Part shown: piece by piece, positions 3,925 to 34,102 of the stretch | Position numbering within the stretch: position 1 is the stretch's first letter | Layout: the number at the start of each line of letters is the position of its first letter | From: Marsupella aquatica | Taxonomy: Eukaryota; Plantae; Marchantiophyta | Assembly (NCBI GenBank): GCA_973895155.1 | Contig: OZ316895.1 | Coordinates: 20,846,803-20,910,802 of the forward strand | DNA length: 64,000 nt | Reading direction: 5' to 3' | Made by a program: the position numbers and the translations under genes | The notes under the pieces: generated by a model | The model's database searches: none | Told to the model about the DNA's origin: nothing | What the model saw: only the letters and a program-made list of their open reading frames with translations

Positions 3925-4810
3925 CTGTGCGTTGCACAAAAGAAGTCGTGTCGGCCAAGATGTCATTGAGAAAAAATGATGTAGTGTCAGCCAAGAGGTC
4001 GTGGAGAAAAAAGATGTAGTGTTGCCTAGGAGTTCGTGGAGAGAAAAGATGTCGTGTTGCCCAAGAGGTTGTGGAGAGAAAAGATGTCGTGTTGCCAAAG
4101 AGGTCGTTGAGAGAAACGATGTCGTGTCGCCCAAGAGGTCGTTGAGAGTAAAGATATCGTGTCGCCCAAGAGGTCATTGAAAGAAAAGAAGTTGTGTTGG
4201 TCAAGATGTCGTTGAGAAAAAAAGATGTTGTATTGGCCAAGAGGTCGTTGAAAGAAAATATGTAGTGTCAACCAAGAGGTCGTGGAGAAAAAAGATGTCT
4301 TGTCGCCCAAGAGGCCATTGAAAAAAAAAAATGTCATGTCGGCCAAAAAGACGTTGAGAAAAAAAGATGTCGTGTTGGCCAAGAGATCATTGAGCAAAAA
4401 AATGTCATGTCGGCCAAGAAGTCGTTGAGAAAAAAGATGTGTCGGCCAAGATGTTGAGAAAAAAGATGTGTCGGCCAAGATGTCGTTGAGAAAAAATTGT
4501 CATGTTGGCGAAGATGTTGTTGAGAAAAAAACGTTGTGTCGGCCAAGACATCGTTCACGAAAAATACCCGTGCGTTGCACAAAAGATGTTGTTGAGAAAT
4601 AAGATGTCATGTTGCCCAAGATGTTGTTAAGTGACAGATGTCACAAAGTAAAAAGATGTCTTAAAAAAAAAGTAGTTTTGCCAAACATGCCATTGTGTGA
4701 AAGATGTTATTAAGAAAAATGTGTCATTTTGCCAAAGATATCGTGAAGTAAAAGATGTTAAAAAAAATGGTGTTGTTTCACCCAAGCTATAGTTGTGTGA
4801 AAGATATTAT
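3925..4810. repeat. Degenerate minisatellite, ~30-32 bp unit (AAGATGTCGTGTTGCCCAAGAGGTCGTTGAGAAAA-like)
   Basis: More than 20 head-to-tail variants visible, decaying toward 4800; produces the spurious repetitive ORFs at 3868-4582. Confidence 0.9.
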
Positions 4811-7226: not shown

Positions 7227-7348
7227 CGAGCAACCTCAAAGATGGAGTCCATTGGGATGAGCTCACTAAGTAACTGGAAGATGAATCCACTTGGATGTCC
7301 ATATTAGTGCTCATCCTGCTTTTCTTAATTTTGAATTGCTTATACCTT

Positions 7349-7489
7349 TGTCACCTGCTTATCAAACGGTTCACACGACAAATACGTATTTACTCCTACT
7401 AAAATTGTTTGTTATCGTATGACGGGAACGTGGAGGGACGCTATTAGGATTCTGTTGCATGTAGGATGAGTATGTTTATTTCCGCTCCC
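7349..7489 (-). repeat. Truncated 3' LTR (terminal ~140 bp only)
   Basis: High-identity copy of 9796-9936; similarity ends at GCTCCCG, where gag sequence abuts directly. Confidence 0.8.
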
Positions 7490-9542: not shown

Positions 9543-9756
9543 TGAGACCTGCATGCCAAGCTCACAAAAAACAATATCACCAACAAATCTTCCTCAAACA
9601 TCAACCGTCACAAGTTGCGTTGTGGTTGACGTAAAATAACAGAGTAACCAAGAAAAAACTTCTCACGTATCAACCGTTGCAAGCTGCGTTGTGATTGATA
9701 CACTTGAACTCCAAATAGATGTAGCTCCCCTCCTCCTGCAACCAAACAAGGAGAAG

Positions 9757-9776
9757 GTTCCCCTGCAGCGGCGCCA
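9757..9776 (-). promoter_or_regulatory. Primer-binding site (TGGCGCC type)
   Basis: Minus strand TGGCGCCGCTGCAGGGGAAC, ~20 bp inside the LTR end at 9796 and upstream of gag; resembles the Athila/Tat PBS TGGCGCCGTTGCCGGGGA. Confidence 0.75.
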
Positions 9777-9795
9777 AAAACAAGGACCTCACTTA

Positions 9796-10553
9796 TGTCA
9801 CCTGCTTATCAAACGGTTTACACAACAAATACATATTTACTCCTACTAAAATCGTTTGTTATTGTATGACAAGAACGTGGAGGGACGCTATTAGGATTCT
9901 GTTGCATGTAGGATGAGTATGTTTATTTTTGCTCCCGGAAATGTAGTTTTTGATCAAGTCTACCGACTATTCCCGCTGCTTTTGATCAAGTCCCATGGAC
10001 TACGCCACACACACACTCCTACTGGTCGCTGGTGGAGTGCTGTCACCACCCCCCTACTCACATGGTCGACCAACCCGTGCAAGTATTCCTTAGACACTTC
10101 TTGGGAAAGAACACAAGCGTGAGCCGGAAAAGATAACGCCACACCAAAACTTGAGGAATCAAACCAAATCCATATCTTTTGGCAAAAAGTGGTAACACAT
10201 TGCAAGGACAACCCGGCCTCCTGCCGTCTGCCCAACTCCTGCCTCACTCGGGCAAGCGCTACACCTCTACCTCACTACTCTAGCTCGAATTCCCCTTCTG
10301 GCTATGAGCTAACTTCCCTAACACCAACACTAGATTGAGTTCCCCCCCTCACTACTACGGGGCTCCCCCCCTAAATACTCAAAATAACACACCAAAGCAC
10401 CCCTCACGGGGTCACAAGGATGGCGGCTACCCTAGCGGCGCCGCTAAAACCTTCACAAAATAAAGCCCTAATCCTAAATCATGCGGCACACACATGCAAC
10501 TAAAACCCTAATCTAACAATGGGACCGACGGTGCCTTCGACGGCGCCCCAACA
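9796..10553 (-). repeat. 5' LTR (minimal extent; may run to 14010)
   Basis: Starts TGTCACC, first 140 bp repeated at 7349; candidate other end ...GGCGCCCCAACA at 10553. Confidence 0.55.
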
Positions 10554-10906
10554 TCACTTCGTGAACCCGGGCGTGAACTGCAAAAAATGTAAGGGACCTC
10601 ACAATTTCCAAAACTAGGTTCCACTCCGATTGCACCTCTGAGCTCAACCCTGGGTAGGCCTACTCCCCCTGATCATGAATCACAAAACCGCTCTCAAAAC
10701 GAACGCCAAACGACCAAGTTATGGTCATTTTAGTTTCACGTACTTATCAACTTCGCCGGACCCTAACTTACTCATCCTGGCTCCGTTTGAGGAGCGCCGC
10801 CTCTTGTTGGAATCAGCTCCGCGAGCTCTTTCCAACAAGCCCGTGAGTGCACCCTTCCAAAAAATTTCAAAATCCAGAGGTTGTACGACCAAGTCCGTAC
10901 GGCTAC

Positions 10907-12776
10907 CTAGTCCTCATCCTCCTCCTCACTCACGGTGCCATGGCTTGAGCCCCGTGAGTTGGTCTCTTCATCGCTCTCAATTGGAGTGGAGACTACTCCG
11001 CTTCTCTTCTTCTTCACAGGTGTACTCCTCCCGCTAGTGCTTCCTTGCTTCCTCAATGCTGCCAAGGCTTGCCAAGCCCTGACATAGCCCTCACCGATGG
11101 TATCCTTCCACAATGTAGCCTCCTCTCCAGATTGCAACTCCAACGGTAAAAGCTGCCCGGTGGCCATGGGAGTCCCTGGTGTCACAGATCTGGACGGCAT
11201 CCCTGGGGTTCCTGTATTGACCTGGGCCTCCCGTAACAACTTACGTACCTCCTTGAGCTTTTCCTCCAAGCTCTTATTCTTCTCCTGATTCTTCTTGGCT
11301 GCTTCCAATAGGGGACCGTACTTCTCACTTACTTCCTTCACCACCATCTCAATGGCCTTGGAGACCAGGTCAAGGGAAAGCGTGGAGCTAGGTGGGCAGG
11401 GACTTTTCCGCTTCCCCAGACTCAAGGCCTCACTCCTTTTGGCCCTAGTCTCAAAGATCCCCACCTGACTCCGTAGTTCTGCAATCTGGCCTCTTCACCT
11501 TTCCACTTCTCCCGTGTCCCACTTCTCTTTGGCCAATGCTTCTCTCAGCACTCCAACTTCCTCCGCTTCTTTGGCCTTAGTAGACAGGGCCCCCCTCAAG
11601 TGAGAAATCTCCACTTGAGCCGCCTGGAGCAGCTTGGCCTTCTCTTGTATGGCCTCCTCCTTAGCTTTTATCACCTCCTTCATCGACGTGGCACCCTGCT
11701 GCAATGTTTCCACCCTTGCGTTGGCCTGTTTGAGCGCATCTCTCAATGTGTGGGCTAGCTTGAGCCCCTCATGGGCCCCTTCACAAAAATCCCGTAATTC
11801 CGCCAAGTAGACCTCTGGAATGTCATAGGCAAGGGGCTCCTTCAGGTTCCCCACCAAAGATTCCAGCCACTCCAATGTGTACTCCTCATCCTGGATGTCT
11901 TCCTCCACTTGACTGTGTCCTATTCCTGCTGACACTGCTGACACCTCCATGAGTTTCCCCAAGATGGTAGTGGCAATGCTGCGGATTTCCGTGGTAAGGG
12001 ATGACCCAGCTTCTTCGGGCCCCGGGGAGGTAATCAATCCTTCTGCCGTGGCCAACAAAAATGACCCCATCAAATGCAAAGCTCCCCCTGGTTTCAGACT
12101 CTTGGGTTCAACAGCCAATAGCCTTGTCAATCCGTAATACCACCATCCGTAAGCATGGGCTGGATATTTCCGAATATCCAGAGTGATTATGAAATGTTCC
12201 CCATTCACTACCCCGGATTGCACATTACCGAGGACCCGTTGATGAACCTTGGCCAGAAATTCCTTGTGCGCTGCATCCTTGATGGCCGAGAGGTGAATGG
12301 CCGTGGTGGAGGTAGGATTGTTCACCCAGCATGCCACCATTGTCAACGTGAGATCCCTGACAATGTTCCGGGGGGTGAATGAGAACTGCTGGTTCTCCAA
12401 AAACAACAGCTTAGCCAATTCGGCATGAGGTACCAAACGCTGAATACATGCGAAATAAATCCCCTCCGTGCGCAATTCCATTCCAGCCTCCAAGTCCCAA
12501 CTCTTCCCTAGAGGGATTCTAATCTACTCTCATGAAGTCGGTGAGCCCGGTGGCCTGGAATATAGCCTTGCAATCCTCCATCACCTTGGCAGAGGTCTTG
12601 GGATAAATTTGACGGAAAACCTTCCTCATAACCGGTGCTAGACTTGCTGCCGGTCTAGTGCTCATTGCCGCTCTTCTATCTCCTCCCTCCTCCTCAATTA
12701 GTGTCGCAATGTACTCACGGTAAGCGGCTTTGTATCTACAAATGCGCGCTGCGCTGAACTCAGGCTGATCAAGCAT
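10907..12776 (-). pseudogene. Retrotransposon accessory ORF (~620 aa if repaired) with long C-terminal coiled coil
   Basis: ORFs 11495..12493 and 10907..11464 share a frame and are separated by a single TGA; 12519..12776 joins by a frameshift; heptad-rich LRDALKQANARVETLQQ...LEEKLKEVRKLLREAQ; same strand as gag. Confidence 0.6.
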
Positions 12777-17800: not shown

Positions 17801-18120
17801 CCATTGCAAGGTGTTGACAAATTCCAATAAGTCTCAGTGGTGGACCTAGCCATCCAACGCTCTTGCCAAACCAAGTACTCTTGCCTAAATACCCTTGGTG
17901 CCAAAAGGCCTACACAGAACTCCACAAACTGTAAGCAAATTGATGCCTCTATCAACGCCCATGGGAACTCCCATACAAAGCTGCATTTGCTCCTTAGTTT
18001 GCACGACCGTCATTCAATGGTCCCTATTGTCTGCACAAGCAACCAAACCCATCGGTAAGTAATTTGTCATGATCTTGGATCCCAAAACTATTGTCTTGCC
18101 TCAAGCTCAATAGTCGTTAG
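14823..18120. mobile_element. Probable degenerate LTR-retrotransposon non-coding sequence
   Basis: Starts TGTCGG, LTR-like composition with short internal repeats and a microsatellite; no recognisable protein domain and no partner terminus found. Confidence 0.3.
17035..17060. repeat. (GGTTT)5 microsatellite
   Basis: GGTTTGGTTTGGTTTGGTTTGGTTTGG read directly. Confidence 0.85.
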
Positions 18121-18168
18121 TAAATAGTACGTGTTAGACGTTTCCTCTTGGTACCCCGATCGCCGCTA

Positions 18169-18991
18169 CTCATGACTTGGGCTCGCCCTTGGCTCCCAGG
18201 GACACATCACTCTCCTCATATATGCTTTTGGAGACCTGCCACCCCAGACCGGCTTTGGTCCGCTATATTTGGCCCCTAACATGGACCCTCATTATCTGAG
18301 TGTTAAGGTAGTCGAGTTCCACAACTATAATATTGAGAGATAAATTTTACATATACTAATGAGATAGTGAGTTTCAGTCACGGAACTCGAATAATTTAAC
18401 ACTTAGCTCCAGCGTCGCTAACTCCGACGCCGAGCTCCCCTATGGCTCAGGCCCGGAATGGCAACCCGGGGAGGACTTAGCATGGGGAGACTTGTGGGCA
18501 ATGGGGCATGGCACTAGCAAAGGTGAGGCACTAAGTTGGTGACACACAGTCACTAAAGACTTAGACTAGCTGAGGGCTGGTTGGGTCAAGGGGAAAGGGC
18601 CGGGCTCAAGGTCGACCGTCCGGACCCCCGGACGGACTTTGAGTTCTGAGGGCTTGAGTGAGAACTCCTCTTGGGCCCGAGGCAAATGGAGTTTACTCCA
18701 TGGGTAACGCTTGGTGCACGAGTTACGGCCCGATCTGGGTTTGGCCGATCGGGGGCCCCGGACGATGACGGGATCCGAGGGCCTAGGCATGAGCATTGGG
18801 TCAGCCTGATCACAATGGGCTAACTAAGGCACTTCGCTTGCAGACGCCTAACTAGAACGTTATGGGTGTAGCCAGTTGGTGGCATGCTCGGACGTGCGGG
18901 TTGGCAGGGTCCGGGGGGTGGCAGGTCTCCATAAGCATATATGAGGGGAGTGGTGTCTCCTTGGGGCCTAAGGGCGAGCCGAAGTCGTGAG
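18169..18991. repeat. ~83-bp imperfect inverted repeat pair (18169-18250 / 18908-18991), foldback or MITE-like
   Basis: CTCATATATGCTTTTGGAGACCTGCCACCCC vs GGGGTGGCAGGTCTCCATAAGCATATATGAG, and GACTTGGGCTCGCCCTT vs AAGGGCGAGCCGAAGTC. Confidence 0.75.
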
Positions 18992-21324
18992 CCGCAACAA
19001 TTGCGACACTAATGGAAAATGCCAAACGGAAACGACAATAACTTCCCGACTAGAAGTCCATTGGAGGACTTCCTGGGTGCATTGGAAAGATCTGGAGGAG
19101 GACTACATCCTCCTTAGATCATCTGGGTCTAGGGGGTGCCATGGGTTCTTGGGGTTTGCGGGGGCTATCTTGCTTGCTTGCCAAATCTTACTGAAACAAC
19201 AGCCAACCCGCATTCAGTCTCTCAAGGGAGATTGCGTTGGGGAGGCAAGGCCAAGTAGGCATGGAGGTTGAGGTCCAAGGGCACTTGGTCCCTACACCAT
19301 CAGTTGGTTGCTAGAGTCGGGGCCATTCTAGTCCCGACGTGTTGGGACAAGCTTTAGGACAAGATACATTATTGGGCCATGAGCATGTCCTGGGGGTAGG
19401 GCGGTAAGTTGGTGATGGATAGATACAAGGGGAAACCCGGCTGCACCCAAGGAAGGAGCTGTTATGGACAAACAATGGGTGTCGATTCTGGTTCCGGCTT
19501 ATGGCATCGGAAGGACCTATCGCTGACCTACTTACCAATGTCTGTTGAGCTTGAGTTAGGATGCTAGACTCGGGAGATCTAGATCCGGAGGGGTTACTTA
19601 CCAAAGTGCTTGGTTGCTTGTGCAGACAATGAAGACCGTTGAGCGACGGTTGTGCTAGAGAGCAAGTGCGGCTTCGTATGGGAGGGGTCGCAAGTGGTGT
19701 TGAGGGCACCAAGTTGCTTGCTTGAGGAATTCCGTGGAGGCGTCCAGGCACCAAGGGCACTTGGGCGTGGGTGTTGGGCCCGGTGTTGGGATTGGTGAGG
19801 GTGCTAAGTGGCTAGGTCCACCACTTTTTCTGAACTTCTCTAGCTTTCCGATGAACTTGACATAAACATGATTTGTGTAGTACTAAGAAGATTATAAAAT
19901 ACTATGGAGATGAATTATCTTATTTTACAATATATGTGAAGCCCAAAGGGTTCTAATTGTTTACATTTATGTCATAACTTCCCAAGAATTAAAGAATTAA
20001 ATCATTGAATGTAAACTATTGATGGCATTGATTCTTCCCATGGGAGTCCATAAATAGAAGAAAAAAGTCTAAAAAATTGTTCAAGGAACTTACCAAGGAA
20101 ATTTAATTAATATGACTTAGACACACAAATGTTTCAAGATACACATTGGTGCACTCTTTGCATGTGGATTAGGAATTACTGTGTAAAGTGCTTCTACTGA
20201 ATTTTATTTAATATCATTGAAAGCAAAACAAATACATACCTAGAGGAGAGGGTGAGGCTGATGCTTGAATGTAGCACAACTTTATATAAACCACAGTTGC
20301 CATATAAAATGGGGCCTTCCTCTAACCTGAGTGTGTTCATTGCCTATATGAGGGGTAGACCTACTCAGTAGGCTCTTGCACTTATACCCTCATACCATCG
20401 TGGACCCTCATACCCTTAATACAATTTTTGGTGATTCCTCAAGAGAAATACTGATTTTTTATATGGTTATTTGGGGAATATGTATAACTACATTTTGAGC
20501 TGTAGATTGCCCATGACGGTGAACTAACAATATGACATTGATACTAAAAACATCACCAAAATATAATATGCTACAGTTTACCCAAAGTACTTTGGGAACT
20601 TGTGGTTTAGAGTTTAGACTTCAGGCTAGTACCTAGTTTTTTAGTCTACTCCAAGTAGCAATCTTGGTCAAATGAAAAGTGACCCCAACCCTTACTGGAT
20701 AGTTTTACCCCACTCTAGAAATCATCTTCACACCACTCTGGATTACAATTTTTGAAACCAAGCTACGAACCCGCTAGAAAGTCAACAATGTACACTGCCT
20801 CCCAAATACAGATCCAGGAACCAATATACCTGATGCCTGAAATCCAATAACATCAGAGTGAATAGGTTTGACATGACTTTAATATGCATTTGGTCCACAC
20901 CCAGTTACACAATAAGACTTCCCTGGCCCTATGGTTAAAGATTGATGCCCTTACACTGTCCCCTTGTAGCTCCGACACAATTATGCTATGCGATGCCCCT
21001 TTCTATCTATCTAAACGGTATGACATGGAATCCCACTTTTTCTTTCTCATCATCTCTTTACAAAATATTATTTTGGAGGGAAGCCTCCCTGACCATTCTA
21101 TTATGGACATTTTTTTCCTAACCAAGAGATGGTCCTAAAGGTGCCACTTTCTTCATTTGTCCGACTCCTCATAGGATCTAAACAGGTACATTGGCACCAA
21201 CTCCCATGGGATCCTCTTGCTTATGCTTGACAACACTGCTGCTCAACATCAAGTACCGTTGACAACACTCTACTACGCACAGGCATTGGGCAAGTAGTAA
21301 ATACTAGCCAGCTCTTGTAAAGTT

Positions 21325-21456
21325 GTAAAGATTTCACTCTCTCATTCCATCATCAATGAGGTGTGGAATATTGATAGTTAGACACAAGGGTGTAACTTGT
21401 TTGCAAGCTTGTGACTCCGAGCATCATGACTCCGGGCCTACTAGGAGGCCACAAGC
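21325..21456 (-). pseudogene. Displaced copy of the DUF247-like gene 3' end
   Basis: Aligns with 28478-28613 (GTAAAGATTT..CTCTCTCATTCCATCAT..ATGAGGTGTGG..GCAAGCTTGTGACTCC..GGAGGCCACAAGC) and with the true last codons at 28790-28890. Confidence 0.75.
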
Positions 21457-21539
21457 GACATAATTTTTGTACGGAATGGAGGTTACCTGTTTAACCATTT
21501 TTGGAGGTGCCTCTTATTCCCATAATCTCTTGCATGCAA

Positions 21540-21576
21540 TTTTTTTCCGACATTGCTATATGGTGAATGCACGTTT
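21540..21576 (+). repeat. Left 37-bp direct repeat of the HUH element
   Basis: Identical to 27238-27274. Confidence 0.9.
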
Positions 21577-21877
21577 ACGTTTTTTTCCCCATTTGTTTCT
21601 GGCAAAATTAGATTTTTGATTAGCTTTTAGAGTAAGGCATTTCTCATAATAATGTCTTCTGGAGTATTTTTGGACCCCTCTAGTCAAAAAAATTATTCTT
21701 GGTCATCTTAATTTAATTTTCTCCTCTAAAAAACATTTAAGATTGCATTTTACCCTAGAATAAGCAATGTCTGAAAAAATTTTGCAGACGCCAATTCCAA
21801 AGTAACGACTAGCACAAAACTTCTCAATAGTGTCACATGTCCACCCAAAAACAATGTCGGAAAAAAATTTGACGACA

Positions 21878-22152
21878 GCAACTGCAAAATAATGATTTTC
21901 CTTTAAAAATCTGTGCACATTATGAATCCAGGGAGGAGTTATCCACAAAATGCTTCATGGTTTCATGAATCCAAGGACTCGGGTGGGAAAGTGAACCCCA
22001 CATTGTATGTAAATTTGAAGAGAGCAATTGCAAAATAATGATTTTGCTTTAAAAATTTGTGCACATTATGAATTTATAGAGTTATCCACAAAATGCTTCA
22101 TAGTTTCATGAATCCAAGGACTTTGGTGGGGAATTGAACCCCACACTGTATG
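21878..22152. repeat. Tandem duplication of ~130 bp (period ~145) downstream of the HUH ORF
   Basis: GCAAAATAATGATTTT...GTGCACATTATGAAT...GAGTTATCCACAAAATGCTTCAT...GAACCCCACA.TGTATGT at ~21878 and ~22023. Confidence 0.85.
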
Positions 22153-22348
22153 TGTATACAGTCCTCCAGGCAGAGTAACCCCCCTCCCCCCCTCTCTTCT
22201 TTCGTTCCCATTCACTTCCCACACAAACAAAAAATGTACTTTAAATATGTTTATTTATTCTCTCACTCTCATCTATAAACTTACCGTGTCATAAAAATTA
22301 AGTACAAGTTGACAAATACTTCCTGTAATACTTACTTGACACTCAGTT

Positions 22349-23599
22349 TTAGCCATCTCCATTGCATCCACTTACAGGGGATTTTGGCTCAATCTTGACC
22401 TTAAAAAGGCTCTTTCTTAAGAGTGTTGTGCGGCCTTTAAATTTGCTCCTTTTCCCTGCATCAATATACACTCGTGCAGGTTCTATCTCTTCATCATCAG
22501 ATAAAACAATTATGTCAGTATTTGTCATCTTCTCCTTTCCTTTCTTAGACCCTGAAGAATGCTCTGCAGCCAATGCATCAATAGTCTCCAAATAATTACA
22601 GTTAGGAAATGGCTGCCTGTCTGCCAATGATACAAATTTGCCCAGAGAATCACCAAATGTCACTCCCTTCTCAGGCACCTTGATTTCTGCAAACATATAA
22701 TCAAAACAAACAGATTTTGATTCCACCTTGGATTTCTTGAGAGAACTCTTTGTTGGAGATCCCTCAATCACTGTGCTCAGTTCAGGTACATCATCATCAA
22801 CTGATTCAGAATAATATCTGCCACAACCACCACTCCAAGCTTTTCTAAGAAAAACTTCTTCAACATCAGTTTTGCATACATTGATAGGATCAATAATACA
22901 CTTCCAAAGACAAGTCATTCTCTTCCTATCCATTCCTTGTCCATTTAAAGGAATAATCCAACTTGCAGCAGGCATAAAGATCCCAGATTTCACCATCTCT
23001 GTTAATGTTGAAATGAATGTTGCATGCAGAGGTCTCTGTGACCTGTATTTGTGCCACACATACATTATGTCAGCAACATTCTTGTTTGTGAGGGTTACTC
23101 TCGACTTCAGATCTGCTCTGCCAAAAATAGAATGTAACTGTTTTCCTGCAATCACTTCTTCATCAGTAATGTTAAACAATGCTTGCTCAAAATGGGTAGC
23201 CCCTAAATCTTTCAAACAATAACCAATCATTCCTTTCCAAGTATGTAATTGTCTATTAGTCAAACATTTACACATAACTTTACCAACAGGATTCATATTC
23301 TTGACCCCATGCCAACCCATATACTTTCTCACAAGAAAACCAAAAGACCTGGCGGATTTTGTTCTGGCTCTCACAACCATCTGAAAATGGAGATGATTCT
23401 CCAGTTCTCCCCTCTCAAGTCCAATCACACCTGCCACACAATGATCAAGCATGAGACTATGGAGCTTGTGAATTTCATCCTTATGAACATCAGAACCCAG
23501 ATATCCCACAGTGATACTCAATTCAAAAACACTGTCAACTAGAGAGGCTTCCTCCTTATCCTGCACAGAAAGTCTTGCTTTTCGCTTTAAAGAAGCCAT
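22349..23599 (-). CDS. HUH endonuclease / Rep-type transposase (Replitron-like), 416 aa
   Basis: Motif I-like FELSITV, motif II GLERGELENHLHFQ (H69-L-H71), motif III GMIGYCLKD (single Tyr127, Lys130); no Walker A/B or helicase motifs; low-complexity K/S/E-rich C-terminus. Confidence 0.85.
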   Translation of the reverse strand: MASLKRKARLSVQDKEEASLVDSVFELSITVGYLGSDVHKDEIHKLHSLMLDHCVAGVIGLERGELENHLHFQMVVRARTKSARSFGFLVRKYMGWHGVKNMNPVGKVMCKCLTNRQLHTWKGMIGYCLKDLGATHFEQALFNITDEEVIAGKQLHSIFGRADLKSRVTLTNKNVADIMYVWHKYRSQRPLHATFISTLTEMVKSGIFMPAASWIIPLNGQGMDRKRMTCLWKCIIDPINVCKTDVEEVFLRKAWSGGCGRYYSESVDDDVPELSTVIEGSPTKSSLKKSKVESKSVCFDYMFAEIKVPEKGVTFGDSLGKFVSLADRQPFPNCNYLETIDALAAEHSSGSKKGKEKMTNTDIIVLSDDEEIEPARVYIDAGKRSKFKGRTTLLRKSLFKVKIEPKSPVSGCNGDG

Positions 23600-24057
23600 G
23601 TTAACTTCGCACAGAGTTTTCTAGACTCTGGAAACTGCTTTTGTGAATCTGTATTGCAAATACAAGAATTCAGTTCAAAAAGTTAAGTTGGATAAGTGTC
23701 AACTGTTTTCACTATAAAAAAAGTTTTTTCTTTTGACTCTACCACTGTTTCGTCCTCCCCTGTATTCTCAGTTGCCTGCAAAATCCGAAATGGTCCAGCA
23801 AGCAACTTCTCTTCACCTAACCTGCAAACCAAAAAACAAAATTCAATATCTCTAACACAATGTGATGACTCTTTCTCTATGTTTTCAAGGATCACTTGGA
23901 CTAAATCTTCAGGTGTGTAAGGAATGATAGTGATGTTTGCTCCTAGTTGTGATTCGCTGGACATTCCTCTTCCTAGCAACACAAGGGACAGAGCAAACAT
24001 AAGGGACACAAGACAAACACAAGTTAGCTGATGTTAGGGTGAATAATACTCATAGGA

Positions 24058-24295
24058 TGTTAGTATTCTTGACAGACTCGGACTGTTAGTACTCTTGACA
24101 GACTCGGACTGTTAGTACTCTTGACAGCCTCGGATTGTTAGTACTCTTGACAGCCTCGCACTGTTAGTACTCGACAGACTCAGACTGTTAGTACTTGACA
24201 GACTCAGACTATTAGTACTCGACAGACTCGGACTGTTAGTACTCTTGATAGACTCGGACTATTAGTACTCTTGACAGACTCGGACTGTTAGTAAG
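24058..24295. repeat. Minisatellite, 24-26 bp unit GACTGTTAGTACTCTTGACAGACTCG, about 9 copies
   Basis: Directly visible head-to-tail array ~460 bp upstream of the HUH start codon; degenerate TGTTAG units continue to ~24520. Confidence 0.9.
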
Positions 24296-26502
24296 TATCC
24301 TGGCCAAAACTCAAACCTGTTAGTAATCTTGATAGACTCTGTTAGTAAATGACCTTGATATATTCAATGTTAGAGACACCTCAAAGAACCCAAACACTCA
24401 GGACTGTTAGTAGATAATCTGGACTGAGTGTTAGAGACACCTGAGGACTGGTGTGAGACAGAGAACAAGACTCAATGACCAAGAACCAAGACTTATAAAA
24501 CGCAACACAATGTTAGAGACCACCTCCACTGACCCCAGTATCTGACAAGGGACTGAAGAGACCTCGACCAAACACTATTACACACTGGAGCGAGAACAAG
24601 ATCAAGAGAAGATCAAAAGCTGAGAGAGCGAAGGCAAGGGAAGGCAATTCTTCTCGAAGACTGAAGAACTGAATGGACTGATACAATGGAGTCCCCTTAA
24701 GTAGGAGGCATCAGGTTTTGTCTCCCCCCAGATTAAAGGTTGAGGTTTGTGTTGTCACTCAACTAAACCTTTAACCTGGAGACCAGAAAAAACATCCATC
24801 ACCTAAGTGAAATGCTAAGTGAACAGTATTGTATATTTTCATATGATCTCCAAGATACATGGAAACTGTCTCCAGCTTGTGTACAAGAGCGGAGCAACAG
24901 TCCGAGTCTATCAAGAGTCCAGCAGTAAATGAGTCCAGCCTTGTCACTGCCTCTCTCACTACTCCACCGAGTGGCCGTTCCCTCTTGCTATACGAGAGAG
25001 AAAACGAGAACAGGGGAATACTAGACCGCCGCCATCTACGGGCCTCGGATCAGTAGCGCCTCGGACCCAGCAACGACAATCAGAGTCCAGCCACAACGGA
25101 GAGACTCACCCCTCGTTGCACGAGGAGATGAGGAACTCGCGAGAGCAAAACCAAACACAATCGAGATCACAACTCTCATAAAAGCGAGAAAAGGGTCTTC
25201 AACTCTCAAGAGCCTATCCTTTTGCTCGTGTCGCGTGAACACAATACGGCCCAAAAAGCAAGAGTGAGCAAGCGCCCTGATCTCTCCTTCGCTCTTCTCC
25301 TTCACTCTCTCGTCTCGAGGCGCTGTAGCTTAACAATATCCGATCCCACCTCAGCAGCCACCAAGCTCGCGAGACAGCGAGATCAAATCAGACGAGCATC
25401 GTTGAAGAATGTACAAGAGAAAGGGACCTTAGATATGCTCCTCGTCAAATTCGCATCCTTTACCGCTGGTGATACTTCGCCTGTCCTGAGCTGTTCCCTC
25501 TTATCTGCAGCAGCAGCGGACGAATCTCCCAACCCACTTCTCACGCTCACTGCTCCTCTACCATACGAAGAAGAACAGTTGCCTCTCACTACATTGTTCC
25601 CCGGAGCCTTACAACACCATAGCCGAGCGGATGGACTGACTACAGTCGCGGACAAGAGAATTGACATGGCTTCCTTCCTGCAGCCCGTGCTGCTGATGCC
25701 ACTAATTCTATCCCCGACTCACACACTACAGGATTGGAATCGCCAACCCTCTTAGTCAGAAACAGAGCCCAAAAAACACTCCTCGCATTCAGAGGAGTCC
25801 TTCAAATCAGGAGCTTTCGCCCACCCGCACAGCTTCCCTGCTTCACGAGACGCAGCGAAAAACGTGTCAAACGATGCGCAATGCAGCAGCCCACCAATGC
25901 GACAACCGATAGCCAACTCGATCGAGGGTTCACCTCAGCAACCGAAGCGACTTCAGGCAGTCTTAACCGTGCAGCACTACCATAGCCTGTTCTCTATCCT
26001 AATGGAATTTCAAATTAGACGGAGAGAGAGAGGCGGAGCACCAACAGCTTCGGATGAGGAGCGGCAGACAATGAAAATGGGCAAGGAGCGGTAGACAATG
26101 AAGAGGTGGGCACGACACACGATCACCACACCACTCCACAAGCACGAAATGAATGCACAGCTAGCTCGAGTAGATAGCTCATACACGAGACTGAACCAAC
26201 TAATAAGTACATAAGTGATCAGCTTCGCTTGATCGAAGGAGAGCCAAGCAGGACCTATATAGCAAAGATGCATAAATATCCCACACAGAATTAATGCAGC
26301 ATGGCGAGAGGATCGCGAGCATCTGATCGAATGAGCCGGAGCAGCTAAGTAGGGCCTCGGACCCAGCAACAACGAGCGCAGCAGCGATGGTAGCAACCGA
26401 GTAAAGCGTATGGAGGACCAGCTAGCGATGGTAGCAACTTGATGTGATCAAAGCCCACCTTCAATCTATTGATGATCGATCCAGAGCAGCATCGATCACA
26501 TC

Positions 26503-26980
26503 TGCAGCATCGACAGCGAGCGCAAGAGCAAACAAAGGCAACGGGAGAGCAGGAGATCACTCAGCCGAGAAGCGGACACTCAGCCGAGAAGCGGACACTC
26601 AGATCAGATCAGCTAGAGGGAGGCGCGCAAGCTAGAGGGAGGCAGCAGCATCGATCGAGCAACATTGCAAGGCAGCAGCATCGATCGAGCAGCATTGAGA
26701 TCGAGTAGCACAGCAACGAGAATGCATCAGTCCTAGAGAAAGCATGATTGATCACATCAGCAGCATCGACAGCGAGCGCAAGAGCAAACAAAGGCAACGG
26801 GAGAGCAGGAGATCACTCAGCCGAGAAGCGGACACTCAGCCGGGAGCAAAGATCAGATCAGATCAGCTAGAGGGAGGCGCGCAAGCTAGAGGGAGGCAGC
26901 AGCATCGATCGAGCAACATTGCAAGGCAGCAGCATCGATCGAGCAGCATTGAGATCGAGTAGCACAACAACGAGAATGCA
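26503..26980. repeat. Tandem duplication (~220 bp, period ~255) with nested short repeats
   Basis: GCAGCATCGACAGCGAGCGCAAGAGCAAACAAAGGCAACGGGAGAGCAGGAGATCACTCAGCCGAGAAGCGGACACTCAG...GAGATCGAGTAGCACA at ~26504 and ~26760. Confidence 0.85.
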
Positions 26981-27237
26981 ACACGAGAGACATGAGAGCA
27001 CAACCACCATCGATCCATTGAGAGAAACCGGGGAGAATAGACTTGCAGCTCCAAGCCCCAGCGAGCACAAGCGAGAAGCTGATTTGGGTTTGGCTGCAGT
27101 AACCCCAAAGCACCTTCGATCCCCACCACTTGATCTTCCAACTTGATCCGATCCCCACCACTCGATCTTCCAACTTGATCGTGTGGTCCTTGCTGCCCCT
27201 ATAGATACCTTGCTGGGCCCTGCATTACCAATGTACG

Positions 27238-27274
27238 TTTTTTTCCGACATTGCTATATGGTGAATGCACGTTT
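27238..27274 (+). repeat. Right 37-bp direct repeat of the HUH element
   Basis: Identical to 21540-21576. Confidence 0.9.
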
Positions 27275-28336
27275 GTGTTTTTTTTGGTGCTTTGCATACC
27301 TATTGCCTTGGATACCGGAGTACTGCCTTGGATACCCCAAGGATACCCCTTCTGCTGCATCCGATACCCATATGACATCATGACGGCCTATGACTGCATT
27401 GGATCCCCTCTGCCCTCGCTGTCTCTATGTGTCTGACTTGTGCTCCAACGTTCCTTTCAATCCCCACCCTGGTCAAATTAAGTCCTAAATATACTCAGTT
27501 ACCATACTCTATTTCTGTTGTAAAATGTGCATTCAATAAGACAAAATAGGCGTGTATTAGGACGAACATGCTATATCCCGAACAACAATTACATATTACA
27601 AGGGAGGTCTGGGCACTCAGGGGTTCTAGCCTGAACCTTGCTCCAAGAAAGCTCTGGAAAAGCTGACTGGTTGCCACCAAGCAGGTTTCCTCACTTTCTG
27701 GTCAAAAGGCTAGACTAGTAACCTAGACCAGACCTCCATTATCCTATAATTTTTTTGAAAACATTGAGGATGGCTTTACAAGAGTTGGTAGCAGTTTCCA
27801 CTTTTTTATTCTCCAAGATGTGATCAAGATAGGATCAGTTTCTCCATTGGGGAGAAACTGATGCTGTTCAATTTACAAACCCTTTGGGGCACTTTCAACC
27901 TAACCCGTTGCGTAGCTACATGGAATGGAGTGGGGCCCAATTTTTAGGTGGAGTACATTTTTGCCCCAGATTTTAGACCACCACTCTTGGAAGTTTCTTT
28001 TTCTGGCCCCTTGGTCCATTCCTATTTTGAGTCATTTGCATTAAAGTGCGCCAAAAAGTACTTCATAGATCATCTCTTGTTTGAGCTAGAAAGACTCTAG
28101 CCAAAGAGTACACTTACATTCAAGTGGAGTGGGTGCCAAGTGTCTTTTAGCATATTACTCTAGCATCACTTGTTGCACTTAGCTTTACAAGACCATGGGG
28201 CCCATAAAAGGATTGATTTCCAAGAACGCATTTAGTCCTGGTACACTATATTCAGTGTGTGAAATGACACTCCAGTTTGATTTGGTGAAAAAAGCTCCCA
28301 AATGGCCTCAGTGTCTTGTCAAGCCACCCTAGAAGC

Positions 28337-28789
28337 CCTAATGAGGTGTGGGAGGTTGACAGCAAGAAACAAATGTGTAAATTGTTTGCAAGCTTGTGAC
28401 TCAGAGCAACATCAATGACTCCTGCCTCCAGGAGGCCACAAGCAATTGTCAAGCTCTGAGATGCCCTAATTAAGGAGGTAAAGATTTTTACTCTCTCATT
28501 CCATCATTTATGAGGTGTGGGAGGGTTGATAGTAAGACATAGGGGTGTAATTTGTTCGCAAGCTTGTGACTCCCAGCTGCAGCATGATTGTGGGCCCCCA
28601 GGAGGCCACAAGCAACTTTGAGGCTTTGAGACCTGCGCCCGCAGGAGGCCACAAGCAACTTTGAAGCTTTGAGACACCCTAATGAGGTGTGGGAGGTTGA
28701 TAAGCCCCACAAGCAACTTTGAAGCTTTGAGACCTGGGTGTTCCTGAGGGCACAAAGCAACTTTGAAGCTTTGAGACATTTGAGACACC
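28337..28789 (-). repeat. Tandem degenerate copies of the DUF247-like C-terminal coding segment
   Basis: CCCTAATGAGGTGTGGGAGGTTGA...GCAAGCTTGTGAC...GGAGGCCACAAGCAA recurs at ~28337, ~28508 and (partial) ~28640-28720; original at 28788-28890. Confidence 0.8.
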
Positions 28790-31700
28790 CTAATGAAGTG
28801 TGGGAGGTTGATAGTAAGACACAATAGTGTAAATTGTTTGCAAGCTTGTGACCCCGAGCAGCATGACTCCTGCCGCCCAGGAGGCCACAACCCATGGGCG
28901 CTTGAAGTACCTGGCTCTGAACTCGGCGTACAACTGATGCTTCCTGTTTTTGCAGCGAGAAGTGAGCCGACTGAGCATGTCTACCCACTGCGCGTCCGGG
29001 TAGACCGAGAAGCCCTTGCAGAGCGTGTTCCACATCACGCACACCTCGCCGTTGCTCCCGACGCAGCTTATGATGATATCATCTTTTTGCAGCAGCTTCA
29101 CATCCTTCTTCGACTGGATCAGTTTTTCCATCAGAATCAGGAACGAGGTCACGGTGAACAGCCGAGGCCCCACTCTAGGGCGGTATGGATATTGGTGGCA
29201 GGACACCATCTCGAACACGGCCAGATTCCGAAGCAGGGACTCGGTTTGATCGGAGATGCAGAGCTTGGGGAGGTGTAGCACTGCCCCGCCCCGAAAGGTG
29301 TCGACGAATTTAGTCTGGTGAATGAATGCGCAGCCCTCTGGACGTTGTGCGTGATTGACCATCCAAAGGAAAACATGAGAAACCACATGAGAAATACTGT
29401 TTGTGTTCGAATGAATGATTGATTGTGCTGGAATTCATAACTGCATCATGACTGTCATCCACAGCAGCACACCCCCAAATTGAACCTCGAGTACACATGG
29501 GGACTCACTTCAACTTCCAGCAGAGTGGCACGAGTTGCTAGACAGGAGAGGAACCCGACGAGCGAACTCAATTTTCTTTGCATTGGTTATGGAGCAATCC
29601 GCCGATTGAGACCATGAGAAGGAAATTGAGTTTGCTCGTCATATTGCTCCAACAGAAGCATCCAAGTAGCGTTTTTGGCCCCCGGGCAGCAAACATGCAG
29701 TTGTACATTGTTTAGAACAAGGTTTGTTTACGTCTTTGCTATATCACGAATTACGAACACCAGCAAGCAAACCCTGTGGCGGACCAGGTAGCGAACAGAA
29801 ACAGCATCAACCTGCAAAACAATGGCTGATTGACAAATCACAGGGAGAAACAGAACCCTAAAAAAAGAAAACTAAACTGGAAAACAATCATGGCTGATTG
29901 ACAAATCACAGGGAGAAACAGAACCCTAAAAAAAGAAAACTAAACTGGAAAACTTTGGAGACAAAGAAATTCACTCATCAGAGCTGCTTATTTCACAGTA
30001 ATAGAAACCAGTGATTCATATAGTCAAACGAAAGGCTAGAATGAAGATCAACACAAACAAAAGCAAAGGAAGATGATTCAGAAAGCTCCAAGAATACATG
30101 CTGCGTGTTCTTTTCTAATTCTAAGTTCATTTCGGCTCTATTTCTGGTGGAAACGAGCATATTAAGAGCATGAAGTCTGTTCTTCTCCTCCTGCATTTCT
30201 CGCTGCGTACATCTACTCCAGTTACTACTCTGTTGAGCTGTAGATCTCATACATCCATGTAAGACCTCGTCTTAAACTGTACTACTTGTGGATCCTGTCT
30301 CTCATAGTCATTAAAAGCTTCAAGAAGGATTTAGTAAAATTTCATTCTGATTGTTAGGCCAAAAGATTCTCCATTTCCTCTACGGATCTCTGTTTCCAAA
30401 GTTGAACTTATCCAGAACCAGCTGGTAGTTTGAAACGAACAGCAAACCTTTTCCAGAGAAAGCTAGAGACTATATTAACCAACTTTTAATGATTTCGTAG
30501 AGGTTAGTCTCTATAAACATTAGAGCGGTTCACGCTTGGCAACTGTATCTGTTCGATATAGTTGTTAATTCAGAACAAAATTCTATACGGTCTGGTCAAT
30601 GGTGAATTTCGCAATGAACACATATTTGTTTAGAATGCTTGGCGTGGGCCAGACTTATCCACATTTAGTCAAGGGCAAACAACTGGCAAATGGATGCAGG
30701 ACGTTGAACGAAATAGTCCAGCATTTATGCCAAAGAAATACACACTTTCTAATGGATAGCTGAAGGAAGACGTGAGGTGACCTGACCTGAATTGAGGCGT
30801 ATTCCAACGTTCCGCAGCTGAACAGCAGATGGGATTGTATTTGCAGGAGCCATGGCCTTCTCGTCGGCGAGAGGAGGGGGTTTATGGACATCACCCGGCG
30901 GACAGTAGCCCACAATGTAGTGCAAGCAATCCAGAAGATGATCACACTCCAGGAACCACTTGTCTTCGAGAGCTTTAGACACCGCACTCTCACCTTCGGA
31001 ACCACTCTGGAAAAGCTGTAGGTATCGATCTGTCACAACCCTCCTCAACAGATTGTTAAACAAATGATCAGCCTCTTCCTTCTTCCGGTTCTCCACGTCC
31101 GGCAACAACCTCCACACCTTGGCGAGTATGTGAAGGGAAATCTGATTCTCAAGCAAGAAGACATCGCGCCAAATTGTCGATCGTGACTCCGCGAGAAGCC
31201 TGTATAGTGCCTGCGTATGGAGTTCCCAGTAGAGTTTTTCTGGAAGAGGATGAGCATTTGTCTGGTACGAATATCTTAAAAATAGGACCAGAAAGAGCGC
31301 ATCCAGAGCCAGGAAGGTCTTCAAGATAATGGGATTCACTGGACTGGTGTCAATCTCATACCATCTGTAGGCCGTTCTCACGTCCGTTTCCAACTCCAGA
31401 TCCTCAATGAATTGGTCCCACGTATAGGCCAGGTCTGCGCAGCAATCATCAGCTAGGTCCGCTGCTAGGTTGGGATTCGAGTGGCAGATCTCGGTTTTCC
31501 GTTCATAGGCAGGAGAAATTGCATCCAGTCGGGGAAATCTCTCATCAGGTTTATTTTGGCAGCCAGAAAGAGGAGTAGCAGCATTTTTCCATTTCAGAAA
31601 AAAGCGCTGAAACTCTGCTTTGTAGTGCTCGATCCCGGGCTCCAATCTATTAGTATTCAAGCCGAGTGTCACCGTTTGCGCGTTGTACATGCACGGCTTG

Positions 31701-31816
31701 ACTCGTTTGAGATAGGGTGGGACCGCGAATGTTTCTTCGTTCCGGTATGGAGGAGGATGCCTTGTGGCTAAGCGCTTCTCTAGTCGAGCATATTTATCAT
31801 CCCAACTTGAAGACAT
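28790..31816 (-). CDS. DUF247 (UPF0481)-family plant protein, two exons: 31816..30787 and 29337..28790 (~525 aa)
   Basis: Motifs FAVPPYLK..YNAQTVTLG, FLALDALFLVLFL, IWRDVFLLENQI, HLLDCLH, IPSAVQLRNVGIRL, LHLPKLCISDQTESLLRNLAVFE, LIQSKKDVKLL, YFKRPW plus C-terminal TM helix; GT donor 30786 and AG acceptor 29339-29338 give an in-frame phase-1 join. Confidence 0.88.
29816..29952. repeat. ~70-bp tandem duplication in the DUF247 intron
   Basis: ATGGCTGATTGACAAATCACAGGGAGAAACAGAACCCTAAAAAAAGAAAACTAAACTGGAAAAC twice. Confidence 0.9.
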
Positions 31817-34102
31817 GTCGGATATATCATATGTGCATGTCAAAGTTGATCGACTAAGCACGATCTTAAAATCTAAAGTTCTACATACACTTCAAAACAC
31901 TACTGATCTTGCCCACAGGCGCGCAGTGATCTTGGTAGACTGTGTACTCGGAATCAATAATGGCCTCGTCAATTGCTCAACAATGGATTGACAGCACACT
32001 ACAGTTGACAAAATACGAGCTAGCTAGACGACTGTGGTTCTCTGTGTACAGTCAATTGGAGTCGATTCATTTGCTCAAAATTGATTGAACACCCAATTCA
32101 TTTACGATTGAATTTACATGAAAAAACTATGTTTCTCCGTAAATTACAATCAAAATGGACGATGCGCCCAGGGAGTCAATTGGTCGAGAAAGAAGTGACA
32201 GTGGACTGTTGGCTAGTAAGTCGTTATCCAATCACAGTCTAATGTTATGTTCCTATGATCAAAATTGTATTAACGTGGAGACGGGAAAGACTACTATACT
32301 GTAGCTTAGCTGTTAATAAGCTACTCCTCCGCATAGCCATTTCCTCCAGAAGGAGGGCCAGCAAATTTCATGGTGGGAAATCTATTTCGGGTATAGAAAC
32401 GTAGATCTTCACCGATAAAGTGGCGGCAGGAGTTGACAACCGGATCGTGTCTAAAGAAAACGTACTGTCTTCCTAGAATAAAAACACTAACGAAGTTCGG
32501 ACAGCAAATCGTTCAACCTAACAACCGTATTGATCCCGGCTCCACTCTCATACGGGTCGTTATCGAGTACAATGCTTCTACGCTATGTATTTCACGAAGT
32601 GCGGGGGAGTGCGGAGTGAAAGGACGGAGAGTGAGTGCGATAATTGACGGCGATCAGTGTTGATCGGCCCATCAATGACGGCAACAGTCCCAGACTATTG
32701 CAGCTCAAGCAATTATATACTAGTGGATGGATGGATAGATAGATAGATTATTTACAGAGGCTATTGCATCCGGACCAGAAGTCGTAAAACATTGTGACGC
32801 TACTGTAACGGTGTGTCTCTTTCTGGTCGACAAGGTGACGAAAATGGCATGGACGTGAGTGTGAATTTGGAAGCCTAGCTAGGTCATCGCCAGTCGACGT
32901 CTATGCGTGTGGCTAGGAGTTTCAACTTGGTAGAAAAATTCGGCATAGACCGACGTTAGTGCCAATCAGTCGCCATCTGCTAGCACAATCCAATTCATAT
33001 TATTCAGAGTGGCGACTCTGTAGCGAAAGCTAAGCTTTGTCGATCTACACAGAGGTGCAAGGTAGTATGGGTCCATCCATACATAGGTGACTCTAGGAAC
33101 CACATCCAGCTCTACACAGGTGAAGTTAGGTCCAATCCATTATCCTGAGGCCCAAGCAATATTTAGATTGAAGCCAACTAACTTTCATTTTTCATCCAGT
33201 GCAGGATGATCAATGAGCATTACAGTTTTCACCAACCAAATAAAGCGAAAATTTCAACACGGCATTTTCGCGGCTAGGCGGCCATAATTTTCAAAATTAC
33301 TGCAAAGGATCACTCAGCCAAATGAATGCTTCTCAGAAATTGGCAGCGTCGGCGGTCCAAAATTCTCAAAACCATACCTACCGAATCTCTCCGACTTTAC
33401 CAACAGACTCCACGCAAGCAATTATATGATACATCCATTCGATGAAAATCACTGGACCGGAGTGCTAGGACTAGACTCGCACACCAGGAGAAGAAACACA
33501 GAAATCGTATGGAACATCCGGCCAGACGCTTGACCTGCCGCCATTTGTCGTCAATTGAAACCAGATCGATTATTTCGCGAACATTCGCTTCGCTTGATGG
33601 GACGAGAAAGTCGCTCTTCGCCACCCCATTCAGGTGCTCACGTCCAGTCCTGTACAATTCGATATCCGATTGAAGCGTGGGCCCGTGCGCGGCGTGCGCC
33701 TCCCGCCTCGATCCAGAGTCCAGACAGCATCGTCGCCGGCCACCGCTCTACGAGACTACAGTTTTGCTCTATACCCTCTACAGAAACGACTCTTGGAGGA
33801 TCGTGTCGAGGATCGACCGACTTTCGCCATACTGCCAGTCTTCATGCTCTCGTCTTCATGCTCTCCTGACGAGAAATGCAAACTAAAGACACGGATCACC
33901 CACTCATCGAGATTGTACTTTAGTTGCACTAAATTATTAAAAAATTAAAGTCTCTCAGGCCAATTTTTAGATTGACAAGTCCCTCACCTCAATAATTTTT
34001 AGATTGACAATTTGCGCACTTACCTGACTTAAACAAATCAAGGTCTGGCTACCAATTGAGTATTTTGTACTTTGAGGTGACCCCTCGAAACTCGAGCTCA
34101 AA

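What the first reader, a model, noticed from the sequence alone, without database searches (positions are those of the whole stretch)
21540..27274. Apparently intact Replitron-like rolling-circle transposon: helicase-less Y1 HUH endonuclease between identical 37-bp direct repeats
Seen: an intact 416-aa ORF with HLH (GLERGELENHLHFQ) and a single-Tyr YCLKD motif, no helicase, enclosed by two perfect copies of TTTTTTTCCGACATTGCTATATGGTGAATGCACGTTT 5.7 kb apart; no TIRs or LTRs. Known: this matches Replitrons, a recently described eukaryotic HUH transposon group related to CRESS-virus/pCRESS Reps, abundant in non-seed plants and having short terminal direct repeats; it differs from Helitrons (Y2 plus helicase). 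Inference: the repeats hold the nick/termination site allowing release of a circular intermediate; identical repeats and an open ORF suggest a young, possibly active family that standard pipelines would call a hypothetical gene.
Basis: partly seen in the sequence, partly recalled or inferred. Interest (0 to 1): 0.88.

Follow-up and report, generated by a model that had tools for sequence, protein, structure and literature searches.

The report
Liverwort Replitron with duplicated right end
This is an intact-looking, roughly 6-kb copy of a known kind of plant jumping gene (a Replitron) in what is likely a leafy liverwort; it probably moves by nicking and copying one DNA strand, and the 37-base repeat that drew attention is likely a one-off internal copy of its right end, not its true boundary.

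Summary
The ORF, motifs and identical 37-bp repeats are real. The protein is a Replitron transposase: Pfam Replitron_HUH 61.8 bits against a cut-off of 28.5, motifs SITV / HFQ / GYCLK, circovirus-Rep fold and no helicase. The host is probably a leafy liverwort, a group where Replitron transcripts are already published. Public contigs put the left end at 27576, 302 bp beyond the second repeat (8 and 9 contigs diverge there). Sibling copies lack that repeat, and its junction has single-copy depth. The element is about 21538-27576 (6,039 bp), without target-site duplication. Its terminal repeat is 8 bp (ATATAGCA), flush left and 16 nt inside the right end, as published for Replitrons. The 37-47-bp duplicate is likely a private, microhomology-templated patch. 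Mechanism (inferred): Y127 nicking, copy-and-paste, probably through a right-to-left-end circle rather than a single-repeat circle. Verdict: new member of a known kind.

The parts
21538..27576 (-). Whole Replitron copy, about 6,039 bp (left end 27576, right end about 21538)
   Evidence: Left end: loose ends behind 27576/27577 and a depth drop at 27580. Right end bracketed to 21534-21540: host sequence continues to 21533 in empty paralogues, and exact flank contigs of X1 and X2 stop at 21567, which fits a branch at a 31-mer starting at 21538 (inference).
27569..27576 (-). Left terminal short direct repeat ATATAGCA, flush with the left end; inferred nick/start side
   Evidence: The chance of an 8-nt prefix match in a 40-mer was 152 of 200,000 random pairs, and 218 of 127,993 with the real right end kept.
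27520..27576 (-). Left terminal segment shared by many copies, probably including non-autonomous ones
   Evidence: Summed contig depth in X1 is 389-757, about 25-48 times single-copy flanks, falling to 30 at 27580. Depth is only a rough guide to copy number.
21554..21561 (-). Right short direct repeat ATATAGCA, 16 nt inside the right end
21538..21586 (-).
   Evidence: The motif recruits about 20 times single-copy depth in X1 when laid on its duplicate
27238..27284 (-). Internal duplicate of the right end (45 of 47 identical; contains the second 37-bp repeat, 27238-27274); private to this copy
   Evidence: Siblings join 27242 to 27284/27285 with 5-6 other letters (X1 depth 24.2 and 16.7; X4 100.2). 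The window form 27246-27314 is exact at depth 17.9 in X1 (1.1 times single copy) and 77.3 in X4.
22349..23599 (-). Transposase ORF, 416 aa: HUH domain (about residues 22-155), helical domain 2 (about 160-255), disordered tail
23507..23518 (-). Motif I, SITV (SUTU)
   Evidence: S28 in 72 of 77 and T30 in 73 of 79 aligned rows
23381..23422 (-). Conserved E62 and motif II H71-F72-Q73 (HUQ)
   Evidence: E62 89 of 91, H71 90 of 92, Q73 91 of 92
23210..23224 (-). Motif III GYCLK with the single catalytic Y127
   Evidence: Y127 94 of 96, K130 96 of 96; position 131 is D in 89 of 96
22850..23056 (-). Domain 2 (Replitron_C-like; oligomerisation domain by published hypothesis)
   Evidence: PF21860 25 bits, E 2.5e-5, just under its cut-off of 27; confident helices in the model
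21852..21869 (+). Inverted 18-bp exact copy of the outermost right-end sequence; a variant starts near 21765; possible extra binding sites (inference)
   Evidence: (I14)
23600..27237 (-). 3.6-kb upstream region: tandem repeats (26 bp x 9, 254 bp x 2, 32 bp x 2), no recognised gene, low copy in its middle part
   Evidence: Six ORFs without a Pfam match at E 0.01; no Rfam match at E 0.05. Exact contigs at 25397-26136 have about 1.5-2 times single-copy depth in X1 and X2.
21497..21537 (.). Host repeat, flank at the right end
   Evidence: Contigs in all 4 runs join 21533 to the far flank (tables 5 and 5c)
27577..27654 (.). Host repeat, flank at the left end; the element's left end follows GG in gene orientation

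Best explanation
This is a multicopy Replitron transposon of about 6.0 kb (ends near 21538 and at 27576) with an intact Y1 HUH transposase, which likely moves by single-strand, rolling-circle-type copy-and-paste, and whose second 37-bp repeat is likely a private templated copy of the right end. Shown: family membership, intact motifs, left end at 27576, 8-bp repeat flush left and 16 nt inside the right end, no target-site duplication, and siblings without the internal repeat. Inferred, by analogy with Replitron-1 and Helraiser: the transposase recognises the 8-bp motif at both ends and nicks the gene strand at the left end through Y127 (metal held by H71, Q73, E62). A host helicase or replication fork displaces the strand. 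A second cut falls just past the right-end motif. The strand is closed right end to left end, which would place the two 8-bp motifs 24 nt apart in tandem, and is transferred to a target 3' end. The patch most likely arose by microhomology-guided template switching: the acceptor site shares a 9-nt T-rich word with the right-end region, and T runs bound both sides.
For: Pfam PF21859 above cut-off. Motif conservation in 95 homologues. Model pLDDT above 90 over 208 residues; best solved matches are circovirus, nanovirus and PCV2 Rep nuclease domains, Z 9.2-10.0 at rmsd 2.6-3.3 over 91-97 residues. ORF depth about 7-15 times flank depth in X1 and X2, and a 232-nt contig over the catalytic region identical to the window at about 6 times flank depth in X2. 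Loose ends at 27576/27577 with agreement 0.46/0.45 in two studies. An X4 contig joins 21533 to 27576 with 15 letters between, an empty form of the host repeat. 8-bp repeat control about 0.001-0.002. Same asymmetry published for other families (PMC10288648; Dataset S4 passages). Listed sibling differences in the core are 6 synonymous of 10, expected fraction 0.21, p 0.008 (these are the 20 ORF rows among 40 shown of 842).
Against: No genome assembly was held, so copies could not be aligned base by base. The ends rest on cut tables of assembly-graph contigs (69 and 1,568 loose-end rows not shown), and summed depth is not a copy number. The right end is only bracketed (21534-21540). The empty form differs from the filled site (15 letters against about 4), so a small target deletion or plain paralogue divergence cannot be told apart. 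No hairpin beyond chance at either end (z -1.2 at best), although Replitron-1 has one. Unanchored local alignment of the two ends is not significant (447 of 2,000 controls direct, 81 of 2,000 inverted); the 8-bp repeat counts only because the left end was fixed independently. No step of the mechanism was observed, and no Replitron circle is reported in the paper read.
Confidence: 0.74

Rival explanations
1. One reading: the two 37-bp repeats are the functional termini, and nicking in each releases a 5.7-kb circle with one repeat.
For: Perfect identity of the repeats around an intact Rep gene. Rolling-circle origins start and stop at the same sequence (established knowledge).
Against: Siblings of two divergence levels lack the second repeat, homology continues 302 bp further, and the junction is single copy. 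Published Replitron repeats that I saw are 6-7 bp exact.
Confidence: 0.05
2. Same element and ends, but the duplicate comes from the transposase itself. A right end was joined to a cryptic internal site at 27237, forming a body circle, which then recombined into a 339-bp mini-element (left 292 bp + right 47 bp). Alternatively a mini-element self-inserted and was read through.
For: 27238-27576 has the layout of a complete mini-element. Self-insertion is the published explanation for multiple termini in Fusarium Helitrons (PMC5148889 passages). Aberrant end junctions occur with Helraiser (PMC5876387 passages). The two mismatches could point to another copy as donor.
Against: The mini-element junction has single-copy depth, so no family of such minis is seen. 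The model needs the mini's deletion point and the insertion point to coincide within 6 bp. The duplicate lacks the last two bases of the right end.
Confidence: 0.15
3. Domesticated single-copy gene, or an endogenous CRESS-virus Rep fragment, with incidental repeats.
For: Fold matches to CRESS Reps; open ORF with an excess of synonymous differences.
Against: Multicopy depth, several unrelated flanks at one end and an empty form of the site. Pfam names Replitron and no viral Rep family. No helicase and no recognised capsid ORF.
Confidence: 0.03
4. The internal duplicate is an assembly artefact.
For: It is single copy and bounded by homopolymer runs; no listed contig spans its 27237/27238 side.
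Against: Exact contigs across its 27274-27314 side exist in runs of two studies (X1 27246-27314, X4 27247-27314, 0 differences). X1 may be the window's source, X4 belongs to another study.
Confidence: 0.03

Closest known systems
Replitrons (Craig 2023, PMC10288648; Pfam PF21859/PF21860), land-plant clade; nearest named proteins from Adiantum capillus-veneris (36% and 32%) and Riccia sorocarpa (32-35%)
   Same: SUTU, HUQ with upstream Glu, GYxxK, adjacent helical domain, no helicase, disordered flanks, short direct repeat flush left and a little inside the right end, no target-site duplication, variable interior. Leafy-liverwort transcripts are already listed (Dataset S3).
   Different: 6.0 kb against 0.7-4.5 kb in Dataset S1, which holds no liverwort genomic element. 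An internal duplicate of the right end in this copy. No clear right-end hairpin.
Replitron-1 of Chlamydomonas reinhardtii (active; PMC10288648, PMC9977147)
   Same: Same enzyme class and a sharp left end. This copy's left end follows GG, which fits the RG target rule (one site; RG frequency 0.12).
   Different: Replitron-1 makes target-site duplications and fuzzy right ends; no duplication here. Activity here is not shown.
Helitrons (Helraiser, PMC5876387; Fusarium FoHeli, PMC5148889)
   Same: Eukaryotic HUH copy-and-paste elements with right-to-left-end circles; duplicated termini occur in FoHeli.
   Different: Y2 plus a fused helicase; here one Tyr and no helicase. FoHeli duplicates are of the 5' end.
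CRESS-DNA virus Reps (circovirus 7KII, PCV2 8H56, nanovirus 6H8O) and pMV158 RepB
   Same: Y1 Rep nuclease fold; HUQ as in circoviruses.
   Different: 12-18% identity, no SF3 helicase, no capsid recognised, and it sits in an integrated element with transposon ends.

Membership tests
Replitron | Replitron Rep HUH domain (PF21859) | tested here: met
   61.8 bits, cut-off 28.5, E 1e-16; Rep fold
Replitron | Motif I SUTU | tested here: met
   SITV 28-31
Replitron | Motif II HUQ with a conserved upstream Glu | tested here: met
   E62, H71-F72-Q73
Replitron | Motif III GYxxK with one Tyr | tested here: met
   G126-Y127-C-L-K130
Replitron | Conserved helical second domain of about 90 aa | tested here: met
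   PF21860 E 2.5e-5 but 25 bits against cut-off 27; many homologues align to about residue 255; confident helices
Replitron | No fused helicase | tested here: met
   No Walker A in the ORF; tail pLDDT mostly under 50; none of 150 listed hits extends past residue 274
Replitron | Short direct repeats at or near the termini | tested here: met
   8 bp at 27569-27576 and 21554-21561
Replitron | Multicopy, with homology ending at defined termini | tested here: met
   Indirect, from contigs of 4 runs in 2 studies; left end sharp, right end bracketed
Replitron | Right-end hairpin (described for Replitron-1 only) | tested here: inconclusive
   Best z -1.2, 20 of 200 shuffles as good
Replitron | Copy-and-paste activity | not testable with these tools
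   Needs de novo insertions or an assay
Helitron | Two catalytic Tyr (Y2) | tested here: not met
   Position 131 is D; a single Tyr
Helitron | Fused SF1B helicase | tested here: not met
Endogenous CRESS-DNA virus Rep | SF3 helicase fused to the Rep nuclease | tested here: not met
   No Walker A, disordered tail

The most novel reading that the evidence does not exclude
The internal right-end duplicate is a genomic fossil of a Replitron circular intermediate: the transposase joined a right end to a cryptic internal site, and the circle re-entered a mini-element through right-end homology. That would be the first footprint of Replitron circle formation and of end read-through, in a still-active liverwort family that shares the RG target rule with the algal element.
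Probability: 0.13. Interest if true: 0.65.

Novelty: new member of a known kind. Interest (0 to 1): 0.37.

Why it matters
How Replitrons transpose is open: the founding paper lists circle detection, end mutagenesis and transposase structure as future steps. This copy offers a young, intact land-plant family with a mapped left end, an 8-bp terminal motif and a specific predicted circle junction. It is also the first liverwort genomic element with ends that I could find in print (searches; Dataset S1). The internal right-end copy is a natural test of whether that motif terminates transposition: if it does, this locus should shed a 339-bp mini-element, which the contig depth does not show. The class, the host group and an active algal model are already known, so surprise is modest.

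Tried and rejected
No whole genome was held. No RNA holder was listed among 5 runs, which says nothing on expression. Homodimer prediction of residues 18-258 gave no verdict (score 0.00, alignment not used). A PDB sequence search found nothing significant. Metagenome scan: 19 loci from 131 pattern matches, 28-58% protein identity; all-against-all blastn showed shared flanks among groups of them and no DNA match of 60 nt or more to the window, so they define no ends. Viral contigs: 0 of 114 pattern matches confirmed, and 0 matches to a 22-nt right-end pattern. My first reading that the element ends at 27619 (joint 21533 to 27620) was dropped: one search shows 27577-27654 is continuous host repeat. 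Subterminal inverted repeats between the ends (9-bp word at 21564 and 27535) were not significant against controls (81 of 2,000). Terminal hairpins were not above shuffles. Rfam: no match in 20000-29000. ORFs in the upstream region and host flanks: no Pfam match for 6 tested; flank ORFs were listed only. The SI Appendix gave no usable text and Fig. 5C was not visible, so the published end alignments were seen only through the legend, the text and Dataset S4 passages; they may bear on the comparison of termini. Earlier scan notes: none by sequence; the 8 shown by words concern other elements and were not used.
Full report
Observation. The two 37-mers at 21540-21576 and 27238-27274 are identical and occur nowhere else in the window. 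The similarity extends to 45 of 47 bp. The minus-strand ORF 22349-23599 is open for 416 codons.

Protein. Pfam gives Replitron_HUH at 61.8 bits (cut-off 28.5) and Replitron_C at 25 bits (cut-off 27, E 2.5e-5). A full HMMER scan finds 623 representatives at E up to 0.001; none of the 150 listed matches past residue 274. I aligned 95 of the 162 Replitron-like proteins returned, choosing those with long coverage or highest identity. S28/T30, E62, H71, Q73, Y127 and K130 are nearly invariant, whereas H69 is kept in 41 of 92 rows. The metal motif is thus HUQ (HFQ), as defined for Replitrons (PMC10288648), not HLH. The AlphaFold model is confident over about residues 20-255 and disordered after about 270. 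Its best solved matches are circovirus, nanovirus and PCV2 Rep nuclease domains (Foldseek E 7.5e-4; Z 10.0, rmsd 3.0 over 97 residues). Named viral-library hits are mostly CRESS Reps. There is no Walker A motif in the ORF.

Host. A neighbouring single-exon TPR gene is 79% identical to Calypogeia fissa and 52-54% to Riccia, so the host is probably a leafy liverwort. Craig's Dataset S3 lists Replitron transcripts from five such genera. Dataset S1 has no liverwort genomic element, and its longest entry is 4.5 kb.

Copy number. No assembly was held, so I laid public contigs of 4 of 5 listed runs (2 studies) on the region. ORF bins reach about 7-15 times the depth of exact flank contigs in X1 and X2. 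A 232-nt contig identical to the catalytic region has about 6 times flank depth in X2. The nearest sibling contigs upstream differ by about 1-2% in X1. The tool warns that summed depth is no copy number, and X1 may be the window's source. Of the 20 listed differences that fall in the ORF (among 40 rows shown of 842), 6 of 10 in the core are synonymous against an expected 0.21 (p 0.008), and 5 of 10 in the tail. One listed core difference would be a stop in some relatives, so decayed copies exist too.

Ends. Zooming on 27120-27690 with runs X1 and X4, depth is high at 27520-27579 and falls to about twice single copy at 27580. Eight X1 contigs and nine X4 contigs leave the window behind 27576/27577 with agreement 0.46 and 0.45, the pattern of unrelated flanks. 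Beyond lies a separate host repeat. An X4 contig joins 21533 to 27576 with 15 other letters, and contigs in all four runs join 21533 to 27619/27620. These are uninterrupted forms of that repeat, so the element inserted into it. The right end lies between 21534 and 21540. Exact flank contigs of X1 and X2 both stop at 21567, which fits a branch at a 31-mer starting at 21538 (word length 31 taken from the tool text; inference). An inverted internal copy at 21852-21869 ends on the same two bases. The element is therefore about 6,039 bp. No target-site duplication longer than 1 nt exists for any of 21 end combinations. The first 8 nt of the left end, ATATAGCA, recur 16 nt inside the right end; controls give 152 of 200,000 and 218 of 127,993. 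Craig describes the same layout, with alignment running 5 and 11 bp past the right repeat in two families. Dataset S4 passages show a 7-bp repeat in Replitron-1_dArm and an imperfect repeat of about 20 bp running slightly past the right copy in Replitron-3_pSch (record order inferred from Dataset S1; compared by eye). The left end follows GG, matching the RG rule of Replitron-1, but this is one site at a background of 0.12.

The second 37-bp repeat. It lies 302 bp inside the left end. Sibling contigs, one close and one about 10% diverged, join 27242 to 27284/27285 with 5-6 other letters. The window's form (27246-27314) is exact in X1 at 1.1 times single-copy depth and is present in X4. Absence in two sibling lineages makes the duplicate the derived state. 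A 13-mer is shared only by 21576-21588 and 27234-27246, nine bases of it precede the patch, and T runs bound both sides. Microhomology-guided template switching during repair or replication is the simplest source (inference). A transposase-made origin, by circle re-entry or self-insertion with read-through as proposed for multiple termini of Fusarium Helitrons (PMC5148889), is not excluded. It needs a positional coincidence, though, and predicts mini-elements that the depth does not show.

Mechanism. Shown: enzyme class, intact residues, left end, repeat layout, no duplication. Inferred: nicking at the left end on the gene strand through Y127, strand displacement by host factors, a second cut past the right-end motif, closure right end to left end, and transfer to a target. 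Direction is taken from Replitron-1, whose left end is precise and right end fuzzy. Circle geometry is taken from Helraiser, which forms right-to-left-end junctions from the plus strand (PMC5876387). A circle cut at equal positions in two repeats would not regenerate the 16 nt beyond the right repeat, which argues against a single-repeat circle. A second Tyr would have to come from another subunit (published hypothesis). Against the picture: no hairpin above chance, and no direct observation of any step.

Known and new. Every sequence feature that defines Replitrons was met, so this is a new member of a known kind. A full-text search for 'Replitron' gave 11 papers (9 listed), none of which, by title, tests the mechanism. 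'Liverwort' with 'HUH endonuclease' and 'transposon' from 2022 on gave 3, the founding paper, its preprint and a review. What is added: mapped ends for a liverwort element, a larger size, a hint of a shared target rule, and a private right-end duplicate. Papers seen: PMC10288648 main text parts 1-5 of 7, Datasets S1 and S3 whole, S4 in passages, no figures; PMC5148889, PMC5876387 and PMC9977147 in passages; the others as search listings only.

Verdict. Observation confirmed; interpretation partly supported; novelty: new member of a known kind; interest 0.37.

Noticed in passing
window 17836-19825: Element of about 2 kb with long imperfect inverted arms (I1, I2, I6, I7, I10). Summed depth exceeds 20,000 in X1 at 19500-19833, with 18-59 loose ends per run behind 19825: a very high-copy foldback/TIR element.
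   Followed up: no
window 28790-31891 (-), 28336-28616, 21325-21459: DUF247 gene whose 3' end is repeated several times downstream, once on the far side of the Replitron (D6, 24, 57).
   Followed up: partly
window 623-2269 (-) and 44234-45820 (-): Two paralogous single-exon AIG1-like GTPase ORFs, 73-75% alike in two stretches (D18, D20).
   Followed up: partly
window 7344-12523: Zinc-knuckle ORFs and coiled-coil-like ORFs, with a 147-nt repeat at 7344/9791 (93%); probably a decayed retroelement gag region.
   Followed up: no
window 3930-4760: Degenerate 35-36-bp tandem array of about 20 units (D1, D2).
   Followed up: no
window 24042-24347 and 24896-24918: 26-bp tandem array inside the Replitron with one inverted unit about 600 bp away.
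   Followed up: no
window 27577-28183 and about 21170-21537: Unidentified multicopy host repeat that received the insertion (depth up to 516 in X1); only short ORFs.
   Followed up: partly
runs X3 and X4 on 20695-20962 and 28338-28661: Two versions of flank sequence at similar depth, one exact and one diverged: mixed haplotypes, a duplicated region or a hybrid.
   Followed up: no
L001-L019: Replitron-like sequences in metagenome contigs, in groups that share long flanks at 88-99%: old insertions shared between related host genomes.
   Followed up: partly
window 47694-47888 and 51129-51603: 55-bp tandem triplet and a cluster of 60-70-bp repeats near a TPR gene (D7, D8, D10).
   Followed up: no
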